DNA of 64,000 nucleotides, from sequence record PQ615101, one strand, 5' to 3'. The translations under genes were made by a program, and so were the position numbers. Under the pieces are notes generated by a model. It made no database searches and was not told where the DNA came from. It worked only from the letters and a program-made list of their open reading frames with translations. Source of the DNA: Shigella phage SP21535. Below are positions 54,501 through 62,874 of the stretch, piece by piece (within the stretch, counting starts at the first letter, position 1; the number at the start of each line of letters is the position of its first letter).

Positions 54501-54982
54501 TTATAATTATGATTATTAATGAAAACTCTTGGCACTATAAAATTTACTCGGCATTTAATAGCACATGGAATCGTCCAAAAACGTTATGTGCTTATTTTTG
54601 GAAAACGTTTCTCCCGGTATTAGCTGTTTCAATTGTTGGATTTGCAACTTTAGCAGGTGCCGCAATAATTGGCCAAGAAATTTTAATTAAATTCTTTGTC
54701 TTTAGTAGTCTATGGACATTAGTTCCGGCTTCAATTGGTATAGGCATTTTAGCATTATCGGTTATGGTTCTTATTGCTGTCGGGGCGGTAATTGGTCCTT
54801 CCTGGTTGTTAGACAAATATAACGACCGAAAGCTCAATAAAGAAATTGAGTTCATTGTACAAAACGAAGAACGAATCAAAAATGGACTTGAGCCTATTCA
54901 ACCCAAGAAATCGATTATCGTTGAATTTTTAAAAGCTCGTAAAGCTAAAGTATGTCCTGTTATTGAATATAAGGCTGAATGA
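54497..54982 (+). CDS. polytopic membrane protein
   Basis: 161 aa with several hydrophobic helices. Confidence 0.5.
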   Translation: MIIIMIINENSWHYKIYSAFNSTWNRPKTLCAYFWKTFLPVLAVSIVGFATLAGAAIIGQEILIKFFVFSSLWTLVPASIGIGILALSVMVLIAVGAVIGPSWLLDKYNDRKLNKEIEFIVQNEERIKNGLEPIQPKKSIIVEFLKARKAKVCPVIEYKAE

Positions 54983-55992
54983 TGAAAACAGTAATGAAAA
55001 GTTATTTTGGTAGTCATCTTTATGGAACTTCTACCCCAGAATCTGATGTAGATTTTAAAGAAATCTTTGTTCCTCCTGCTCGCGATATTCTTATTGGAAA
55101 TGTTAAAGAGCACATGAGTAAAAACACTAACAACACATCATCTAAAAACACTAAAGATGATATTGACCACGAATTGTATAGTCTTAAGTATTTCTTTAAA
55201 TTAGCAGCAGATGGTGAAACTGTAGCATTAGATATGCTTCACACTCCACCTGAGCTAGTGGTTAAATCTGATTTGCCTGATGTGTGGAAGTTTATTCAAG
55301 ACAACCGTTCTCGTTTTTATACGACTAACATGAAATCCTATTTAGGATATGTCCGTAAGCAAGCTTCTAAATACGGTGTCAAGGGTTCTCGTTTGGCCGC
55401 ATTACGTGATGTATTGAAAGTAGTTAATCAAATCCCTGACCAGTGGGTCGACTATCAAGAAGGAATCCCTGATAGACTTCGTCGCACTAAAGTTGAAGAT
55501 ATTAAGCATCGTCTTCCAGAAAACGAGTTCTGTGAATGGGTGTTCCATAATTATGAGAAAACAGGCCCGCAAATGTTCTACACTGTGTTGGGTCGTAAAT
55601 ATCAGACAACGCTTTCTCTTATTGAGCTTAAGCAGTCACTGAACAAATTAGATGCTGAATATGGTGAACGTGCCCGTAAGGCCGAAGCCAACGAAGGTAT
55701 TGACTGGAAAGCTCTGAGCCATGCTTGTCGTGGTGGACTTCAACTATTGGAAATTTACAAAACTGGTGACTTGGTTTATCCACTTCAAGACGCTCCATTT
55801 ATTCTTGACGTGAAGTTGGGTAAACATCCATTTAAAACGGTTCAAGAGTTTTTGGAAGATGTGGTCGATCAAGTAGAAGCAGCATCTACTGAAGCTTCTA
55901 AGAACGGTATGCCTAAAACAGTAGACATGAGTTTCTGGGATGACTTCCTTGAGAAGGTCTATCTTGAAAACCACCGAAGTTATTATAAATGA
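54979..55992 (+). CDS. predicted nucleotidyltransferase (Pol-beta-like fold)
   Basis: N-terminal GSHLYGTSTPESDVDF resembles the G[SG]-x(9-13)-DxD NTase signature. Confidence 0.5.
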   Translation: MMKTVMKSYFGSHLYGTSTPESDVDFKEIFVPPARDILIGNVKEHMSKNTNNTSSKNTKDDIDHELYSLKYFFKLAADGETVALDMLHTPPELVVKSDLPDVWKFIQDNRSRFYTTNMKSYLGYVRKQASKYGVKGSRLAALRDVLKVVNQIPDQWVDYQEGIPDRLRRTKVEDIKHRLPENEFCEWVFHNYEKTGPQMFYTVLGRKYQTTLSLIELKQSLNKLDAEYGERARKAEANEGIDWKALSHACRGGLQLLEIYKTGDLVYPLQDAPFILDVKLGKHPFKTVQEFLEDVVDQVEAASTEASKNGMPKTVDMSFWDDFLEKVYLENHRSYYK

Positions 55993-56207
55993 TAGGGAGC
56001 CTTCGGGCTTATGGTACTATACAACTATCAAAACAAACACTTAAACGGAAAAACAAAATGAAAATTACACCAATTGAAGTAAAAAAGTTGATTGATACAG
56101 AAGAAATTTCAGAGTGTTTTGAAAGTTTCTTAGAAGATGCAACTGAAGATAATGCAGTTTATCTCGCTCAGAAAATTATCGAAACTTATTTGGAGAAGAA
56201 TCAATGA
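55989..56207 (+). CDS. hypothetical protein
   Basis: 72-aa ORF; actual start may be internal ATG after promoter cassette. Confidence 0.35.
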   Translation: MIGSLRAYGTIQLSKQTLKRKNKMKITPIEVKKLIDTEEISECFESFLEDATEDNAVYLAQKIIETYLEKNQ

Positions 56208-56467
56208 CAGTTTACGTAGATGTTTTAATGAATCATGGATGGAAACTTCGCGGTCATCCAACTAAAAATTGTCATATGTTCACTGATGGAGATATTGAAG
56301 AGCTTCACGAAATGGCAGAAGCAATAGGAATGAAACGTTCTTGGTTTCAAGATAAACGCATTAAACATTATGACTTACACGCTCGGCGACGCCAAAAAGC
56401 TGTAGAACTTGGAGCTGTAGAAGTATCTCGTCGCGAAGCAGTAAAAATTTGGCAAACATTAAAATAA
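56204..56467 (+). CDS. hypothetical protein
   Basis: 87-aa ORF overlapping upstream stop. Confidence 0.45.
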   Translation: MTVYVDVLMNHGWKLRGHPTKNCHMFTDGDIEELHEMAEAIGMKRSWFQDKRIKHYDLHARRRQKAVELGAVEVSRREAVKIWQTLK

Positions 56468-56524: not shown

Positions 56525-57505
56525 TTGGAGAATAAAATGAAAACTGTAACTATCAATAAGGGTATCTACTTCGGTAAAGAAATCTCTGGAACTTTTGAGC
56601 TCTTAGGCGAATGGTTCCCAGATAATGCTCCGGTAGATGTACAAGGAGATGGTAAAGTTTTTGTTGAAATTGACGGTAAACGTCGCGGTGTTTGGGTTTA
56701 CAAATCAGACATTTCATATGATGGTGTAAAAGTTGAAGAAGTTAAAGAATCGTATGAAGATATGAAAACCCGCATTAATAAAAGATTTAATGTTATGGGA
56801 ATGATGACGAATGGTATTATTAATGGAAACATTCGTTCATTAATTATCTCTGGTGCGGCGGGTATTGGTAAAACGTATTCTTTAGATAAAGCTTTGAATA
56901 AAGCAAATGATAATGGATACATTGAATATAAAAGCATTAACGGTAAAATCTCTGGTATTGGTCTTTATGAGCAGCTTTGGAATAATCGTGAAGAGAATTC
57001 TGTCCTTTTGATTGATGATGTGGATGTTTTCTCTGATATGGACATTCTTAATCTTCTAAAAGCCGCTCTGGACACTGGAGAGACCCGTAAAGTCTGCTGG
57101 AGCACTGCATCTTCTTACTTAGAAGAAAAAGGCATTGAGCGTGAGTTTGAATTTAAAGGAACGATTGTTTTTATCACAAACGTTGACATTGACCGCGAAT
57201 TAGACCGTGGTACTAAACTTGCTCCACATTTACAAGCATTAGTATCCCGCTCAGTTTATTTGGATTTGGGTGTTCACACTAATGAAGAAATTATGGTCAG
57301 GGTTGAAGATGTTATTCTTTCAACCGACATGATGCAAAAGCGCGGTCTTTCTGATGAAGAAACTTATAAAGCATTATCATGGATGAAAGTCAATGTTAAT
57401 CGTTTACGCAATGTTTCACTGCGTACTGCACTTTATCTTGCTGACTTTATTATGACCGACAAAAACGGTTGGCAAGAAATTGCTGAGGTTACTCTTCTGA
57501 AATAA
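56525..57505 (+). CDS. AAA+ family ATPase
   Basis: Walker A GAAGIGKT, Walker B LLIDDVD. Confidence 0.6.
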   Translation: MENKMKTVTINKGIYFGKEISGTFELLGEWFPDNAPVDVQGDGKVFVEIDGKRRGVWVYKSDISYDGVKVEEVKESYEDMKTRINKRFNVMGMMTNGIINGNIRSLIISGAAGIGKTYSLDKALNKANDNGYIEYKSINGKISGIGLYEQLWNNREENSVLLIDDVDVFSDMDILNLLKAALDTGETRKVCWSTASSYLEEKGIEREFEFKGTIVFITNVDIDRELDRGTKLAPHLQALVSRSVYLDLGVHTNEEIMVRVEDVILSTDMMQKRGLSDEETYKALSWMKVNVNRLRNVSLRTALYLADFIMTDKNGWQEIAEVTLLK

Positions 57506-57970: not shown

Positions 57971-58498
57971 ATGAACGCTAAAGATATTTTCAACCTGGTA
58001 AATTACAACGATGGTAAATTTAAATCAGAAGCACAAAGCAAGTTCTTTAATGACATCTCAATCGAAGGTGAAATCACGGTTGACGGAGGACAAATTTATA
58101 AATCCCGTTGGAATTGGATCGTTATTATCGATGAGATTGGTATTGTAGAAATTTACAAGAATACGAATAAAAATCGTACATTACACTGGTCTCGTGATAC
58201 TAACGAACAGTACAAAAAGGATAAAGCATCTAAATTATCTCGTGTAACTCAAGAAGATATTGAGTTCATCAAGAAAGATATTTTGATGTATGATAACTTA
58301 ATTGCTGAAGAGCAAGCTGTTATTGATAAATTTGACGAGATTAAAGCTTCTCATGAAATTCCTGATTTTATGAAAGAATCAGTAAATGAACGATACACTC
58401 TCATTTCAGAGCGTATTGAAACTTACAAAAAGCAAAGAGCTGAACGCCAGAACACTCTTCGGAAATTTGAAGAACGGTTAAAGACGGTACTCGCATAA
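57971..58498 (+). CDS. hypothetical protein
   Basis: 175-aa ORF with RBS GGAGGAACAG. Confidence 0.5.
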   Translation: MNAKDIFNLVNYNDGKFKSEAQSKFFNDISIEGEITVDGGQIYKSRWNWIVIIDEIGIVEIYKNTNKNRTLHWSRDTNEQYKKDKASKLSRVTQEDIEFIKKDILMYDNLIAEEQAVIDKFDEIKASHEIPDFMKESVNERYTLISERIETYKKQRAERQNTLRKFEERLKTVLA

Positions 58499-58553
58499 CC
58501 GCTTTATACCAAGGATGGTATAATGGTTCTAAGCCCTTTTAATTGAGATTATT

Positions 58554-58961
58554 ATGAAACAGTTGATAATTAAAAGATTGAATTTATTGATATGTTGTTT
58601 ATGTATAGCAATTGCATACGGTTATTACGCAATTAATGATTATATGCATTATAAAGATTATGATGTTACTGTAGTTAATACCATTACAGGAACACAAGGA
58701 AAAGGGTCTAGTTTATCGTTTATTGCTGTATATGAACTCAAAGACGGTTATAGATTTAGTGAATATATTTCCCCAGAGATGTATTCTTCAATAGAAAAAG
58801 GTGATAATATTACTGTAAGTTTACGTCCTTTCGACGTAAAACAGACACTGTTTGATAATATTGTTTGGTTCTTTGGGATGGTATTAGTTCAATCTGTGTG
58901 CGGTGCTTATGTAGTCTGTTCAATCATATTCTGTGTATTTAGTAAAATTGAAATTGAGTGA
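58554..58961 (+). CDS. membrane protein
   Basis: 135 aa, N- and C-terminal hydrophobic helices. Confidence 0.45.
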   Translation: MKQLIIKRLNLLICCLCIAIAYGYYAINDYMHYKDYDVTVVNTITGTQGKGSSLSFIAVYELKDGYRFSEYISPEMYSSIEKGDNITVSLRPFDVKQTLFDNIVWFFGMVLVQSVCGAYVVCSIIFCVFSKIEIE

Positions 58962-58968
58962 GGAAAAT

Positions 58969-59856
58969 ATGTCAGTAGCAATTAATAATGTCAATGCAGT
59001 AATTAAATCTTTAGTTAATAAAAAATCAAATGAATGGACTGTACTTCGCCGTGGAGAGCCAGATAAATTTTTTCATAGATTTAACCCAACTTTGGATTTG
59101 AATGTTATCGACAAAGATGTTCATGCTGAAATTTTAGATAAATTTAAAGTTGATATTGGATTTGGATTAGAAAAACATTTACAGCGACCAAACGGGTCTG
59201 GAATGCTTTTATCTAAACGCATTATGAAAGCCCTTAATAAAATTGGAGCGTTGTCTCGTATTAATGCGAGCGAAATCCTTCGTAATTATAATAAAGGATA
59301 TGACCTTTACGGTCGACTAATGCCAAAATTATCATTCGATCAAATGATTGCGGATTTGTGGGAAAATCAACGACGATTATTAGCATTAGGCGCTCGATTA
59401 GCTAAAGGTCTAGATAAACAAATGATTTTTAAGACCAATAATACAGAAGACCTTAAATGCTTTAAATTTAGTATTCGCGGAGATGATTATTACATCAGAG
59501 CTCGCTCTACAGATTATGTTAATATGGGGCATCATCTCTGTTTAGCTTTTGAAGTTTTAAAAGAAGCTGGAACATTAGAATATTCATCTGGTGCAAAATG
59601 CCCTATTGGTTCAAGTTGTATTTTAATTTATCGCCCGAATGAATCCAGTTCAACTACATTGCCTACAAAACCTGTACCGGTTCGTAGTAATGAAAAACAT
59701 TCTGAACAAATTGATTATTTTAATAAGCAAATTGAAGAACTGAATATTTCTATTCAACAATATGATGATGAAATTTTCAGACTATCTGGATTGAGTAGTA
59801 AAGCTAAATCTGAGCGTGAAAAGTTAATTAAAATTGTTGATTTACTTAAATCTTAA
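58969..59856 (+). CDS. hypothetical protein with C-terminal coiled coil (tandem family member 1)
   Basis: ATG 58969 after GAGGAAAA RBS. Confidence 0.5.
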   Translation: MSVAINNVNAVIKSLVNKKSNEWTVLRRGEPDKFFHRFNPTLDLNVIDKDVHAEILDKFKVDIGFGLEKHLQRPNGSGMLLSKRIMKALNKIGALSRINASEILRNYNKGYDLYGRLMPKLSFDQMIADLWENQRRLLALGARLAKGLDKQMIFKTNNTEDLKCFKFSIRGDDYYIRARSTDYVNMGHHLCLAFEVLKEAGTLEYSSGAKCPIGSSCILIYRPNESSSTTLPTKPVPVRSNEKHSEQIDYFNKQIEELNISIQQYDDEIFRLSGLSSKAKSEREKLIKIVDLLKS

Positions 59857-59864
59857 GGAACACC

Positions 59865-60872
59865 ATGAAAACTCGTTCTCAAATTGAAGATATGGTTCGT
59901 AATGCCAGTTATACTCGTGATGTTATGACATTTTTGTGTGAAAATAATTTAGACCCTGATAAAGTTAATCGTGTTATTCATCACTTTAAGTATACGAATA
60001 GCAGTGAATGGGTGCGTAATTTTAGTAAAGCGGGATATATTACACAAATGACTGCTCGTGAGCAGCTCACCGATTTCTGTAAAACTATTGATTATAAAAA
60101 TCCTCTATTTGTTCAAGGCGTTGGTCAAAGTAAGGTCGATTTATCATCTGGATTTTTCAATCCAAATCATTATCGTATTGAATGGAGATTTATTGCTCTG
60201 TTCCGTAGACAATTAAAGCAAATTTTATCAACTGCGAGTCGATTAAAAGGTTCTGATATTAACTTAAAGAATCTGAAATTTGATGGTTATACTCTTCAGA
60301 TGGAAGTAAGACCATTAAAAGAAAATAATAGAACTGCACGAATTAGCTTTAAACCTAATACAAAAAATTCTCTTTCAATTTGCGAATGCCTTAAATCACA
60401 GTTGACAGAAGCATTTAAGTATATGGATGTTGTTGCTGCTGTTCAATCTAAGATTTTACCTCGTTTTGAGCGAAATTGGGAACATACAACAACATATGAA
60501 CTTGATATGATCGTTTCATTTAAATACGATTTTTTGAGAAAGGACGAAGTCCCGCAAGAGAAAAAACCTGAACCCCAAACTAATTACTCATCAAACGATC
60601 CTAAATTTTGGATGTATAGTTCAGGTAATAAAGATGCATGGAAATTCAATAAAGTGAATTTTCTTTCTGTTGAAAATCCGAGTCTTAAACCTGTTGAAAA
60701 ATGGTACGCGGATGCGATTGAGAAGTCCCTTAAGGCAGTAGATGATGAACTCGTTAAAGCGACCAATGAAGTGCTAGAAGCTGAAAAGGCGTTAGAACAA
60801 GCTCAGTCAAGGGTTCAAAATCTGACAAAGCAACGTTCTAAACTGAACAATGCACTAAATGCACTGAACTAG
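59865..60872 (+). CDS. hypothetical protein with C-terminal coiled coil (tandem family member 2)
   Basis: 335-aa ORF. Confidence 0.5.
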   Translation: MKTRSQIEDMVRNASYTRDVMTFLCENNLDPDKVNRVIHHFKYTNSSEWVRNFSKAGYITQMTAREQLTDFCKTIDYKNPLFVQGVGQSKVDLSSGFFNPNHYRIEWRFIALFRRQLKQILSTASRLKGSDINLKNLKFDGYTLQMEVRPLKENNRTARISFKPNTKNSLSICECLKSQLTEAFKYMDVVAAVQSKILPRFERNWEHTTTYELDMIVSFKYDFLRKDEVPQEKKPEPQTNYSSNDPKFWMYSSGNKDAWKFNKVNFLSVENPSLKPVEKWYADAIEKSLKAVDDELVKATNEVLEAEKALEQAQSRVQNLTKQRSKLNNALNALN

Positions 60873-60901
60873 TTTACTTTGCCACAAGGATGTGGTATAA
60901 T
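60873..60901 (+). promoter_or_regulatory. early promoter (GTTTAC ... TGGTATAAT)
   Basis: GTTTAC 60873-60878; TGGTATAAT 60893-60901. Confidence 0.55.
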
Positions 60902-60929
60902 GTTCTTACTTTCTACTGAGGAGATTAAT

Positions 60930-61856
60930 ATGACTCGTAAACACTATATTGATTATTTTGACAGTCTTATTACTAAACATCGTAATTATCAGATCGGGCA
61001 CAGAGCAGTAATCAATAATATTCTTCGTGATTTCCTTCAATATGTTGACCAGGAAAATCATATCTGTAAAGATACTCAAAACGCTTATTCTCATTCGTTA
61101 GGCAATTTGCTTGAATGGTTTAAACGTTCTCGTATGTTATCTTCTACTGTAGCTCGCGATAACATTAAAAACTTTATGAAGCCGAGCTTCATTAAATCTG
61201 AGACATCTATAACCGATTTGGTTGAATTTACTATTGTTAACGATGTTAAAAAGACCCATTTGGCTGATTGGTTATCTACCATTCCTGAAACTAAATTTGC
61301 TGATAAATTTGCTTGTCAATTCAATGACCAAGTGAATATGCTTTTTAAGCATGCTCGTAAACTATTTACCGCGGGCGATGACCGTACAAATACAGTTCAT
61401 GTTAAGGATTGGGTTATTGCTGATGAAGTAACACACAAGCCAGGTGGTTCATCAGTGTTAATTAATATCCAGGTTCCTTATTATTACTCACGTAATCTCG
61501 GCACCATGAACTCTAGAGAAATTAATAAGCACAACAAAACTATTCGTTCATTGTCTTATAAACTCCGCATGATGTTAAAAATCATGGACGTAGTAGAAAT
61601 GTATGATGAAACCGAAGATAATGGTTCAATGTTATACAGTTCACGCATTCTAATTAAACTGAAGAACCCTAATACGTATAAGCCAGTTGTAAAAGAACCT
61701 AAAGTAGAAAAGATTGATAACCTGAGTGAAGAACGCGAATATCTTAATACACGCTTAATTGAAGTTGAAGCCCAAATTGCAGAACACACCAAATTGTTAA
61801 AAGCTCTTAATGCAAAAGCAAATGGTTTACGTAATGCTATTGAGGTATTGAAATGA
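60930..61856 (+). CDS. hypothetical protein with C-terminal coiled coil (tandem family member 3)
   Basis: ATG 60930 after GAGGAG RBS; track start 60879 lies in promoter. Confidence 0.5.
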   Translation: MTRKHYIDYFDSLITKHRNYQIGHRAVINNILRDFLQYVDQENHICKDTQNAYSHSLGNLLEWFKRSRMLSSTVARDNIKNFMKPSFIKSETSITDLVEFTIVNDVKKTHLADWLSTIPETKFADKFACQFNDQVNMLFKHARKLFTAGDDRTNTVHVKDWVIADEVTHKPGGSSVLINIQVPYYYSRNLGTMNSREINKHNKTIRSLSYKLRMMLKIMDVVEMYDETEDNGSMLYSSRILIKLKNPNTYKPVVKEPKVEKIDNLSEEREYLNTRLIEVEAQIAEHTKLLKALNAKANGLRNAIEVLK

Positions 61857-62170
61857 AAAAGCGCTTATTAGAAGATATTGCAGCTTCAAGTAATTCCAGT
61901 CTAATTAAAATTATTATGGCTGGTGAAGAAGACGATTTAGAAATGCGTGGAAAGATTCATGGCTGTGACGATCTAGACTTTAAACCTCCTGCTTGGGATG
62001 CCATTACGGTTATGGTTGAACGCCGCGAAAGGGCTTCTAAGAATGTTCCGAACTGCCCAAAATGTGGTACTGAACAGGTCCAATTGATTAACTGGCGTAA
62101 ACCAGAGCTTGAATATAAATGTCGTCATTGTAAACATCGATTTGACCGAGAAGAAAATGACAAAGCGTAA
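61853..62170 (+). CDS. hypothetical Zn-ribbon protein
   Basis: 105 aa; CPKCG...CRHCKH. Confidence 0.45.
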
Positions 62171-62330
62171 AGAATATATGGAGACTGCTGAAAAGGCAGT
62201 CCGTGAATTAGCAATAGCTTATTATAATGAACATGGTAAATTTCCTGATAGATACAGCGTGCTTAAATCAGCTTTAACTCGTTCATATAAAAATATGCTA
62301 TCAGAAGTAAGTGATATTATACAAACATAA
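62157..62330 (+). CDS. hypothetical protein
   Basis: ATG 62157 overlapping upstream gene end. Confidence 0.4.
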
Positions 62331-62398
62331 AGAACAAACGGGCCAAAGTCTTGATTACGACGAGACTTTTAAACAAGTATTAGGAATTAAGGAATAAT

Positions 62399-62662
62399 AT
62401 GTTTAAAGTATATGGTTATGATAGCAACATTCATAAATGCGTGTATTGTGATAATGCAAAACGTCTCTTGACTGTGAAGAAACAGCCGTTTGAATTTATC
62501 AACATTATGCCGGAAAAAGGTGTTTTTGATGATGAGAAAATTGCTGAGCTTCTGACTAAACTAGGTCGTGATACTCAAATCGGATTGACGATGCCTCAGG
62601 TATTTGCTCCTGATGGAAGTCATATTGGTGGATTTGACCAATTGCGGGAATACTTTAAATGA
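62399..62662 (+). CDS. nrdC: glutaredoxin/thioredoxin NrdC
   Basis: 87 aa; CVYC active-site motif. Confidence 0.8.
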   Translation: MFKVYGYDSNIHKCVYCDNAKRLLTVKKQPFEFINIMPEKGVFDDEKIAELLTKLGRDTQIGLTMPQVFAPDGSHIGGFDQLREYFK

Positions 62663-62874
62663 TGCTTGAAGGAACTGATTATATCCATGACTACCGCGGA
62701 AGCGCGGTATATGTAGGTGATGAGGTTGCAGTTTATTATGGGTATGGAACTTTGATGACAGCAAAGGTTATTCAAATTAAAAATAATCGTGCTAAACTTG
62801 AAGTTTATTATTCTAACGGTGAAAAGTCTATTTCTAAATGGAAATACGGCGATTGTATGGTCAAACTGGGGTAA
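62659..62874 (+). CDS. hypothetical protein
   Basis: 71-aa ORF overlapping nrdC stop. Confidence 0.45.
   Translation: MMLEGTDYIHDYRGSAVYVGDEVAVYYGYGTLMTAKVIQIKNNRAKLEVYYSNGEKSISKWKYGDCMVKLG

What the first reader, a model, noticed from the sequence alone, without database searches (positions are those of the whole stretch)
58969..61856. Three tandem ~300-aa genes sharing a globular-domain plus C-terminal coiled-coil architecture
ORFs 58969-59856, 59865-60872 and 60930-61856 each end in a ~50-residue heptad coiled coil preceded by a Pro/Lys-rich linker. The N-terminal domains are diverged. This looks like a duplicated family, possibly oligomeric effectors.
Basis: seen in the sequence. Interest (0 to 1): 0.45.

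Follow-up and report, generated by a model that had tools for sequence, protein, structure and literature searches.

The report
Paralogous T4 nrdC counter-defence gene array
The three genes are the phage T4 genes nrdC.6, nrdC.5 and nrdC.3, anciently duplicated copies of one gene (variable head, floppy linker, conserved coiled-coil tail), and because nrdC.5 is already known to disarm the bacterial immune protein Dsr1, its two sisters are good candidates for disarming other defences.

Summary
The window is a T4-like (Tequatrovirus) phage. The three ORFs are nrdC.6 (58969-59856), nrdC.5 (59865-60872) and nrdC.3 (60930-61856), on the early-gene strand. Each has a globular part, a Pro/Lys/Ser-rich linker that AlphaFold leaves disordered, and a C-terminal tail of about 52 residues in one unbroken heptad register.

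Pairwise BLAST sees no similarity among the three. Enriched profile-profile comparison shows near full-length homology (E 9e-9, 3.4e-7, 2.6e-5). The signal holds for the heads alone (E about 1e-4 for each pair). For tails alone it is strong only for nrdC.6 versus nrdC.5.

A fourth paralog, nrdC.4, was deleted from this phage by recombination between the 5' ends of nrdC.4 and nrdC.3. More distant T4-like phages carry a single copy at the same position.

T4 NrdC.5 is published as the factor that overcomes the SIR2 defence protein Dsr1 (Srikant et al. 2022). The window's copy is 100% identical to it in the head and 98% (60 of 61 residues) in the tail.

Best reading: an expanded family of early, probably oligomeric, counter-defence proteins with diversified target-binding heads. 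Oligomerisation, direct binding, and any function for nrdC.6 and nrdC.3 are inferred. These are known genes, so the interest is moderate.

The parts
58969..59856 (+). nrdC.6 ortholog (295 aa): helical N-part, beta-hairpin/helix/beta-hairpin core, linker, coiled-coil tail
   Evidence: 96.6% identical to T4 nrdC.6. PHROG 2257 E 3e-150. Precomputed Pfam PF26899. AF2 model pLDDT 77.5.
59865..60872 (+). nrdC.5 ortholog (335 aa), the published anti-Dsr1 gene of T4
   Evidence: 94.4% identical to T4 NrdC.5: 100% over aa 1-203, 60 of 61 tail residues, and most differences plus a 5-aa deletion in aa 204-270. Pfam DUF7235 scores 411.8 bits against a cut-off of 30. Function from PMC9391042.
60930..61856 (+). 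nrdC.3 ortholog (308 aa), Shfl2-type allele, driven by the former nrdC.4 promoter, RBS and start codon
   Evidence: 97% identical to Shfl2 nrdC.3 but only 60% to T4 nrdC.3. PHROG 1435 E 1e-117. Paralog of nrdC.4: BLASTP E 1e-8, HHalign E 6.5e-6.
59668..59853 (+). nrdC.6 tail module: KPVPVRSNEK motif followed by about 7 heptads, ending LLKS
   Evidence: PVPVRSNEK is nearly invariant across the 30 family sequences; S240, N241, K243, DDEIFRL and R283 are strictly invariant.
60687..60869 (+). nrdC.5 tail module: KPVEKW motif followed by about 7.5 heptads, ending ALNALN
61680..61853 (+). nrdC.3 tail module: KPV motif, K/P/E-rich stretch and about 6 heptads, ending IEVLK
59221..59436 (+). nrdC.6 shared head motifs: M1 (IMKALNKIGALSRINASEILRNYNKG) and M2 (LWENQRRLLALGARLAKGLDKQMIFKT)
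   Evidence: Aligned with the equivalent stretches of nrdC.5, nrdC.4 and nrdC.3 by hmmsearch and HHalign.
60009..60269 (+). nrdC.5 head motifs: M1 (WVRNFSKAGYITQMTAREQLTDFCKT) and M2 (FIALFRRQLKQILSTASRLKGSDINLK)
61107..61406 (+). nrdC.3 head motifs: M1 (LLEWFKRSRMLSSTVARDNIKNFMKP) and M2 (DQVNMLFKHARKLFTAGDDRTNTVHVK)
60873..60901 (+). T4 early-type promoter-like site (TTTACT, 17 nt spacer, TG-n-TATAAT) in the nrdC.5-nrdC.3 spacer
   Evidence: Consensus scan, 10 of 12 matches with the extended TG. The same sequence precedes nrdC.4 in Shfl2. This is a consensus match only.
60930..60941 (+). Recombination joint that removed nrdC.4: ATG ACT CGT AA from nrdC.4, continuing as nrdC.3
   Evidence: Three-way DNA alignment with the Shfl2 nrdC.5/nrdC.4 and nrdC.4/nrdC.3 junctions.

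Best explanation
Identity and origin. The three ORFs are nrdC.6, nrdC.5 and nrdC.3 of a T4-like phage. Together with nrdC.4, which this phage has lost, they are diverged tandem paralogs of one ancestral gene that sits just upstream of nrdC.2 in Straboviridae.

Architecture. Each protein has three parts:
- a head of about 220-270 residues: an N-terminal helical part carrying motif M1 (xFxKxGyLSxxxARxxLxNFxK), a helix with motif M2 (LxxxARLxxGxD+), then a beta-hairpin/helix/beta-hairpin unit;
- a disordered Pro/Lys/Ser-rich linker that ends in a single [K/E]PV motif;
- a C-terminal heptad helix of about 50 residues.

Proposed mechanism. The genes are transcribed early. The tail zips the protein into a coiled-coil oligomer, most simply a parallel dimer. 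The flexibly tethered heads bind and block a host immune sensor before the late proteins that would trigger it accumulate. For NrdC.5 the target is the SIR2 NADase defence protein Dsr1. The diverged heads of nrdC.6, nrdC.3 and nrdC.4 would target other defence proteins or other variants.

Shown here: gene identity, paralogy, architecture, heptad pattern, and gene loss by recombination between paralogs.
Shown in the literature: NrdC.5 expressed in trans restores T4 growth on Dsr1-bearing cells.
Inferred: direct binding to Dsr1, oligomerisation, and a counter-defence role for the other paralogs.
For: Identity. The region is about 96% identical in DNA to Tequatrovirus genomes. Synteny with Shfl2 and T4 annotation is complete. 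Protein identity to T4 is 96.6% (nrdC.6), 94.4% (nrdC.5) and 60% (nrdC.3).

Paralogy. See HHalign, controls, and hmmsearch against 670 ORFs. Bridging sequences P0205, P0207, P0208 and IME523 gp085 hit both the nrdC.6 and the nrdC.5 families. Every paralog has exactly one [KE]PV motif, 55-62 residues from its C-terminus.

Copy number. It is 1 in Kanagawavirus and Mosugukvirus, next to nrdC.2, 3 in Gaprivervirus VR7, and 4 in T4 and Shfl2.

Architecture. The AF2 secondary-structure order is the same in nrdC.6 and nrdC.5.

Function.
- T4 nrdC.5 alone restores infection of Dsr1-bearing cells (PMC9391042). The window's copy is identical in the head.
- Dsr1's TPR sensor is reported to be triggered by a phage major capsid protein, a late product (bioRxiv 10.64898/2026.01.04.697583). 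An inhibitor made early is consistent with this.

Arms-race signatures.
- nrdC.4 is present in some genomes and absent in others.
- nrdC.3 has two allele classes about 60% identical in genomes that are otherwise about 95% identical.
- There are fusions and internal duplications.
- Within each family the linker is least conserved; the tail is the best-conserved region in nrdC.6 and nrdC.3, while in nrdC.5 the core is slightly higher (0.94 vs 0.92).
- A neighbouring gene, 49.2, is an anti-OLD inhibitor (PMC13096335).
Against: - Only nrdC.5 has any experimental function, and nothing in the held literature shows how it works.
- No paper held in the library reports a function for nrdC.6, nrdC.4 or nrdC.3.
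- Oligomerisation was not tested. The monomer AF2 model of nrdC.6 breaks the tail at S273-G274 and folds it into a hairpin. nrdC.5 has several Ala at d positions.
- The nrdC.5 model is poor (pLDDT 53.7), so structural similarity of the heads rests on sequence profiles and secondary-structure order, not on a superposition.
- No solved or predicted structure of known function resembles the head, so nothing independently indicates a binding function.
Confidence: 0.6

Rival explanations
1. The tail is not a homo-oligomerising coiled coil. It is an intramolecular helical hairpin or a docking module that all paralogs use to bind one shared partner, either a host or phage hub protein or each other as hetero-oligomers. 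The heads still provide specificity.
For: - A Gly/Ser/Asn sits at the same tail position in many family members.
- Tail residues that are not core positions are invariant (PVPVRSNEK, DDEIFRL, R283 at an 'a' position).
- Within nrdC.6 and nrdC.3 the tail is more conserved than the head. This is more than a generic zipper needs.
Against: - The heptad register runs unbroken across the predicted turn, with a 3.5-residue period over about 52 residues in all three families.
- nrdC.5 is modelled as a single 59-residue helix.
- A monomer prediction cannot show intermolecular packing.
Confidence: 0.22
2. The proteins are dimeric nucleic-acid-binding regulators, for example of host or phage transcription, rather than inhibitors of immune proteins. 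NrdC.5's effect on Dsr1 would then be indirect.
For: - Motif M1 lies in a helix-turn-helix-like pair (H81-91 and H94-106 in the nrdC.6 model).
- nrdC.3 residues 29-85 weakly resemble the N-terminal SAM-like DNA-binding domain of tyrosine recombinases (Pfam E 0.059, NCBIfam E 0.0015, both far below cut-off).
- One GenBank record labels a homolog 'inhibitor of host transcription'.
- A basic helical head plus a dimerising coiled coil is a common regulator design.
Against: - The database matches are sub-threshold and cover a region not shared by the paralogs.
- The turn Gly of M1 is not conserved in nrdC.3 and nrdC.4.
- The GenBank label has no stated basis.
- NrdC.5 expressed alone from a plasmid rescues a phage on cells carrying only dsr1. 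This is most simply explained by direct antagonism.
Confidence: 0.1
3. The three genes are unrelated, and their coiled-coil ends are convergent or a compositional coincidence.
For: - Pairwise BLASTP and the first shallow HHalign runs found nothing significant.
- The three belong to different PHROGs and different Pfam families.
Against: - Enriched profiles align near full length, and the heads alone match at E about 1e-4, against E >= 0.076 for 57 controls.
- Motifs M1 and M2 and the single [KE]PV motif occur in the same order and spacing.
- Bridging sequences and single-copy syntenic homologs exist.
Confidence: 0.03

Closest known systems
T4 NrdC.5, the counter-defence factor against Dsr1 (Srikant, Guegler and Laub, eLife 2022, PMC9391042)
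   Same: ORF 59865-60872 is its ortholog. It is 94.4% identical overall, 100% in the head and 98% in the tail, in the same position and orientation. ORFs A and C are its distant paralogs with the same architecture.
   Different: The window's linker differs (substitutions and a 5-aa deletion in aa 204-270). nrdC.6 and nrdC.3 share only about 12-19% aligned identity with it and have no tested function. The mechanism of NrdC.5 is not published in the held literature.
DSAD1 of SPbeta-like phages, the inhibitor of the sirtuin defence protein DSR2 (PMC10973363, PMC11087589, PMC11263360; seen as titles and abstracts)
   Same: It is a working analogy: a phage protein that neutralises a SIR2-NADase defence protein whose sensor recognises a late structural protein (the tail tube for DSR2, the capsid protein for Dsr1).
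   Different: It is a different defence protein and a different phage lineage. DSAD1 was not compared here by sequence or structure, so no homology is claimed. The direct-binding mechanism known for DSAD1 is only inferred for NrdC.5.
T4 internal proteins IPI, IPII and IPIII (described in PMC9391042)
   Same: They are a set of T4 accessory proteins that share one common module and differ in the rest. IPI (anti-GmrSD) and IPIII (needed on ECOR17) act against host defences. This is the same 'common handle, diversified body' logic.
   Different: The shared module of the internal proteins is an N-terminal capsid-targeting sequence, and the proteins are packaged and injected. The nrdC.3-6 proteins share a C-terminal heptad tail, are homologous throughout, and are made from early transcripts.
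Pfam DUF7235 (PF23882), PF26899 and PF26897; PHROGs 2351, 2257 and 1435
   Same: Each ORF is a full-length member of one of these families of unknown function.
   Different: The databases treat them as three separate families. The profile comparisons here join them, together with nrdC.4 and the single-copy genes of other T4-like genera, into one superfamily.

Membership tests
NrdC.5 / DUF7235 (PF23882) | Full-length match to the family HMM above the gathering score | tested here: met
   ORF B scores 411.8 bits against a cut-off of 30, covering 1-335 of the protein and 1-307 of 307 profile positions. ORFs A and C give no DUF7235 hit even at E <= 1, so they are not members of this Pfam family.
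NrdC.5 / DUF7235 (PF23882) | Orthology with T4 nrdC.5 (sequence and synteny) | tested here: met
   94.4% identity, located between nrdC.6 and nrdC.4/3.
NrdC.5 / DUF7235 (PF23882) | Restores phage growth on Dsr1-bearing cells | not testable with these tools
   Shown for the T4 protein only (PMC9391042). Inferred for the window's copy from 100% identity of aa 1-203 and 60 of 61 tail residues.
nrdC.6 family (PHROG 2257 / PF26899) | Full-length profile match | tested here: met
   ORF A matches PHROG 2257 at E 3.3e-150, covering 1-295 of the protein and 1-303 of 303 profile positions. Its database relatives carry precomputed PF26899. PF26899 is not in the local Pfam copy.
nrdC.3/nrdC.4 family (PHROG 1435 / PF26897) | Full-length profile match | tested here: met
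   ORF C matches PHROG 1435 at E 1.2e-117. Its relatives carry PF26897. nrdC.4 relates to it at BLASTP E 1e-8 and HHalign E 6.5e-6 to 5e-9.
One nrdC.3-6 superfamily (proposed here) | Significant near full-length profile-profile alignment, heads and tails separately, above unrelated controls | tested here: met
   One search gives E 9e-9, 3.4e-7 and 2.6e-5. One search gives heads at 1.8e-4, 1.1e-4 and 3.4e-5, and the nrdC.6/nrdC.5 tail at 1.6e-7. Tails alone are weak for the pairs involving nrdC.3/4 (0.014, 0.01). Controls give E >= 0.076.
One nrdC.3-6 superfamily (proposed here) | Same three-dimensional fold of the heads | tested here: inconclusive
   The secondary-structure order is the same in both models. 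The nrdC.5 model is poor (pLDDT 53.7) and nrdC.3 was not modelled. BFVD hit lists overlap only weakly (CBH8, Cronus, KPV15).
Coiled-coil oligomer | Continuous heptad repeat of at least 4-5 heptads with hydrophobic a/d positions | tested here: met
   for all three families. for single sequences: nrdC.6 and nrdC.5 are significant, nrdC.3 is weak.
Coiled-coil oligomer | Self-association through the tail | not testable with these tools
   Only monomer predictions were possible. nrdC.6 was modelled as a hairpin and nrdC.5 as a single long helix.
Thioredoxin/glutaredoxin (label in many GenBank records) | Thioredoxin-fold domain with a CxxC active site | tested here: not met
   There is no thioredoxin-type Pfam or NCBIfam hit. 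No CxxC occurs in any of the three sequences. The label is carried over from the gene name nrdC.x.
Tyrosine-recombinase N-terminal SAM-like domain (considered for nrdC.3) | Match above the curated cut-off | tested here: not met
   Pfam PF02899 scores 14.1 bits against 22.3. NCBIfam XerC/D models score 14-18 bits against cut-offs near 300.

The most novel reading that the evidence does not exclude
The nrdC.3-6 array is a modular counter-defence toolkit. One conserved tail acts as a shared oligomerisation or docking handle, possibly allowing mixed oligomers of paralogs. Heads have diversified by duplication, allele replacement and recombination, so that each neutralises a different bacterial immune sensor. 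Targets could include further TPR-sensor proteins of the Dsr1/Avs7 kind. On this reading nrdC.6, nrdC.4 and nrdC.3 are three undiscovered anti-defence proteins, and the single-copy gene of other T4-like phages is the ancestral form.
Probability: 0.3. Interest if true: 0.65.

Novelty: new member of a known kind. Interest (0 to 1): 0.4.

Why it matters
T4 is the best-studied virulent phage, yet three of these four genes have no reported function, and many GenBank records mislabel them 'thioredoxin'. Showing that they are paralogs of the one gene known to defeat Dsr1 gives concrete, testable candidates for new anti-defence activities. It also gives a domain map for experiments: head for specificity, linker as dispensable spacer, tail for assembly. 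The array is a compact example of how a phage expands and reshuffles a counter-defence gene by duplication, loss through recombination between paralogs, and allele swapping. This bears on host-range prediction for therapeutic T4-like phages.

Tried and rejected
- Pairwise BLASTP and shallow family HHalign gave only weak collinear hits and could not show homology on their own. Profiles had to be enriched with VR7, IME523, PM2 and metagenomic relatives.
- The AF2 model of nrdC.5 from a shallow alignment (all sequences above 83% identity) was poor (pLDDT 53.7). Its BFVD hits to tail-completion and connector proteins (E about 3e-3) are not trusted.
- Profile searches of PDB sequences found nothing for any family.
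- The search for related loci failed: the diverse alignment had no conserved stretch, and P0207 and P0205 gave no usable loci.
- A crude second HMM iteration was distorted by insert columns. It brought nrdC.3 in only marginally (E 0.04) and was replaced by the clean profile-profile runs.
- Rejected: thioredoxin function, which is name propagation.
- Rejected: tyrosine-recombinase SAM-like domain in nrdC.3, which is sub-threshold.
- Rejected: relationship of nrdC.8, nrdC.10 or nrdC.11 to the family, since there is no signal.
- Literature searches for a named anti-Dsr1 mechanism or for DUF7235 found nothing beyond the 2022 paper.
Full report
WHAT IS THERE

The window is a T4-like phage. The stretch 58500-62700 is 95-96.5% identical in DNA to many Tequatrovirus genomes, and its gene order matches Shigella phage Shfl2 and T4 itself.

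The + strand is the early-gene strand. The three ORFs of the finding are:
- nrdC.6 (58969-59856, 295 aa);
- nrdC.5 (59865-60872, 335 aa);
- nrdC.3 (60930-61856, 308 aa).

A T4 early-type promoter consensus lies at 60873-60901. Protein identity to T4 is 96.6%, 94.4% and 60% respectively.

T4, Shfl2 and most relatives carry a fourth gene of the same size, nrdC.4, between nrdC.5 and nrdC.3. It is absent here. The junction alignment shows that the window keeps the nrdC.5-nrdC.4 spacer, promoter, RBS and the first codons of nrdC.4 (ATG ACT CGT AA), then continues as nrdC.3. The deletion therefore arose by recombination between the similar 5' ends of the two paralogs. Several other Tequatrovirus genomes show the same short form (single-piece hits; record counts).

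CHECK OF THE OBSERVATION

The C-terminal 52 or so residues of each family keep one heptad register. Hydrophobic occupancy is 0.71-0.83 at a/d positions and 0.13-0.22 elsewhere. The periodicity peak is at 3.5 residues.

Against shuffles of each whole protein, the tail windows of nrdC.6 and nrdC.5 are significant (z 4.4 and 3.4). nrdC.3 is weaker on a single sequence.

AlphaFold2 gives a usable model for nrdC.6 (pLDDT 77.5). It has a helical N-part, a beta-hairpin at 165-178, a helix at 186-199, a beta-hairpin at 204-221, a disordered stretch at 227-241, and helices at 242-271 and 277-294.

The nrdC.5 model is poor (53.7). It has the same order of elements and one confident 59-residue terminal helix.

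The linkers are Pro/Lys/Ser/Glu-rich. Within each family they are the least conserved part. The tail is the best-conserved region in nrdC.6 and nrdC.3; in nrdC.5 the core is slightly higher (0.94 versus 0.92).

ARE THEY ONE FAMILY?

Pairwise BLASTP links only nrdC.3 with nrdC.4 (E 1e-8). Shallow profiles gave only weak collinear hits.

A full-library HMMER search with the nrdC.6 alignment found only 14 proteins. Three of them were distant full-length relatives: P0205, P0207 and P0208. By tblastn these belong to Enterobacter, Edwardsiella, Klebsiella, Kosakonia and Pectobacterium T4-like phages. In the two whose loci were examined (Enterobacter IME523 and Pectobacterium PM2) a single copy lies immediately upstream of nrdC.2. 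Gaprivervirus VR7 has three copies: nrdC.6, nrdC.5 and nrdC.4.

These intermediates hit both the nrdC.6 and the nrdC.5 families. Their tails combine nrdC.5-like 'HYAxxIExS(I/V)N' with nrdC.6-like 'E(I/V)FRLS' and the common ending 'QRxKLxxA(I/L)xxL(K/N)'.

An HMM was built from nrdC.6-type and single-copy sequences only. It was searched against 670 six-frame ORFs from five loci. After the seed genes it returned only VR7 nrdC.5 (E 2.3e-6), the window's nrdC.5 (5.3e-5), Shfl2 nrdC.5 (1.4e-4) and Shfl2 nrdC.4 (1.7e-4). Noise began at 0.15. The nrdC.4 match lies in the head, not the tail.

Enriched profile-profile comparisons are near full length:
- nrdC.6-type vs nrdC.5: probability 95.7%, E 9e-9, 256 columns;
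- nrdC.6-type vs nrdC.3/4: probability 93%, E 3.4e-7, 225 columns;
- nrdC.5 vs nrdC.3/4: probability 74.8%, E 2.6e-5, 248 columns.

Split at the [KE]PV motif, the heads alone give E 1.8e-4, 1.1e-4 and 3.4e-5. The nrdC.6/nrdC.5 tails alone give 1.6e-7. The two tail comparisons involving nrdC.3/4 are weak on their own (0.014 and 0.01). Fifty-seven other window ORFs give no E below 0.076 against the same profiles.

Shared landmarks are motif M1 (xFxKxGyLSxxxARxxLxNFxK), motif M2 (LxxxARLxxGxD+), and exactly one [KE]PV motif 55-62 residues from the C-terminus in every paralog.

A Foldseek search of viral models with the nrdC.6 model found full-length matches to uncharacterised 300-370-aa proteins of many T4-like phages, at 11-17% identity and E 3e-7 to 9e-4. 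The family is therefore widespread in Straboviridae and apparently confined to them.

WHAT THEY DO

The held literature has one functional result. An evolved T4 clone that had lost nrdC.5 could not plate on ECOR17 or on MG1655 carrying the ECOR17 dsr1 gene. Expressing nrdC.5 alone restored plating (Srikant et al. 2022, PMC9391042).

The window's NrdC.5 is identical to the T4 protein over residues 1-203 and at 60 of 61 tail residues. Most differences, including a 5-aa deletion, lie in the linker. The activity is therefore very likely retained.

A 2026 preprint reports that the TPR sensor of Dsr1, shared with Avs7, is triggered by a phage major capsid protein. An early-made inhibitor that occupies or disables Dsr1 before capsid protein appears is therefore the simplest mechanism. 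It is analogous to DSAD1 acting on DSR2. This step is inference.

The genetic behaviour of the array fits counter-defence genes:
- copy number varies from 1 to 4;
- paralogs are lost by recombination;
- an in-frame nrdC.5::nrdC.3 fusion and an internal duplication occur in other genomes;
- nrdC.3 has two allele classes about 60% identical in otherwise near-identical genomes, diverged in residues 81-260;
- a neighbouring gene, 49.2, inhibits the OLD defence (PMC13096335).

WHAT REMAINS OPEN

- Oligomerisation is inferred from the heptads. nrdC.6 has Ile at 'a' and Leu/Phe/Tyr at 'd' (read from the register). By established coiled-coil rules, which is my own knowledge, this pattern favours parallel dimers.
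- The monomer model folds the nrdC.6 tail into a hairpin. The invariant non-core residues (PVPVRSNEK, DDEIFRL, an Arg at an 'a' position) suggest the tail may also be a specific docking surface.
- No solved structure or known fold matches the head.
- The 'thioredoxin' labels in GenBank are name carry-over. There is no thioredoxin domain and no CxxC.
- A faint resemblance of nrdC.3 residues 29-85 to the SAM-like domain of tyrosine recombinases is far below threshold.

VERDICT

The genes are known T4 genes, and one already has a published counter-defence role.

What is added here:
- nrdC.6, nrdC.5, nrdC.4 and nrdC.3 are joined into one head-linker-tail superfamily;
- a single-copy gene at the same position in other T4-like genera is identified as the likely ancestral state;
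- the mechanism by which this phage lost nrdC.4 is shown;
- nrdC.6 and nrdC.3 are nominated as candidate anti-defence proteins.

Interest is moderate.

Noticed in passing
window 60873-60941, compared with L001 6300-6520 and 7360-7580: nrdC.4 is missing from this phage. The joint keeps nrdC.4's promoter, RBS and first 11 nt, fused in frame to nrdC.3. This indicates deletion by recombination between paralogous 5' ends.
   Followed up: yes
window 60930-61856: nrdC.3 is only 60% identical to T4 nrdC.3, while its neighbours are 94-97% identical. The tblastn identity distribution has distinct classes (95-99% and 60-80% being the largest). The divergence is concentrated in residues 81-260, while the N-terminus and tail are conserved.
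   Followed up: partly
window 55989-56467: Two small ORFs (72 aa with no family; 87 aa DUF4031, E 1e-21) lie between nrdC.11 and nrdC.10. Shfl2 has no genes there, so this is a small accessory insertion.
   Followed up: partly
window 54979-55992 and 56525-57505: nrdC.11 is an RlaP-type nucleotidyltransferase (E 3e-11). nrdC.10 has weak P-loop/STAND-like NTPase matches (E about 1e-4, below cut-off).
   Followed up: no
P0162 (167-kb contig) and P0001 (Shigella phage Sf25): P0162 is an in-frame fusion of nrdC.5 residues about 146-263 to nrdC.3 from residue about 137 onward. Sf25 nrdC.6 carries an internal duplication of about 83 residues. Both show that the array is recombinationally active.
   Followed up: partly
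P0199 (Mosigvirus-type nrdC.6 relative) compared with nrdC.4 (L001 6452-7453, L002 5890-6882): The linker of P0199 contains 'ALQDLIDELNQDVIPV', which resembles the nrdC.4 linker 'TLEDLIDNLNNEPV' (BLASTP 34% over 92 aa, E 3.6e-4 in a small set). This suggests exchange of linker segments between paralogs.
   Followed up: no
window 61853-62170: nrdC.2 (105 aa) ends in a zinc ribbon with two CxxC pairs (several Zn-ribbon Pfam hits, best E 7e-5, below cut-off). It is the conserved downstream neighbour of the family in every T4-like phage examined.
   Followed up: no
window 57971-58498: nrdC.8 (175 aa) also has a helical, heptad-like C-terminus (z 1.6, not significant) and shows no profile relationship to the family. 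A DRT1 paper lists T4 nrdC.8 as down-regulated and calls it a nucleotide reductase, which looks like another name-based misreading.
   Followed up: partly
GenBank annotations of homologs (hits H1-H125): Many records label nrdC.3, nrdC.4, nrdC.5 and nrdC.6 as 'thioredoxin'. One labels an nrdC.6 homolog 'inhibitor of host transcription', and some label a neighbour 'Mur ligase domain-containing protein'. None of these is supported by domain searches of the window proteins.
   Followed up: partly
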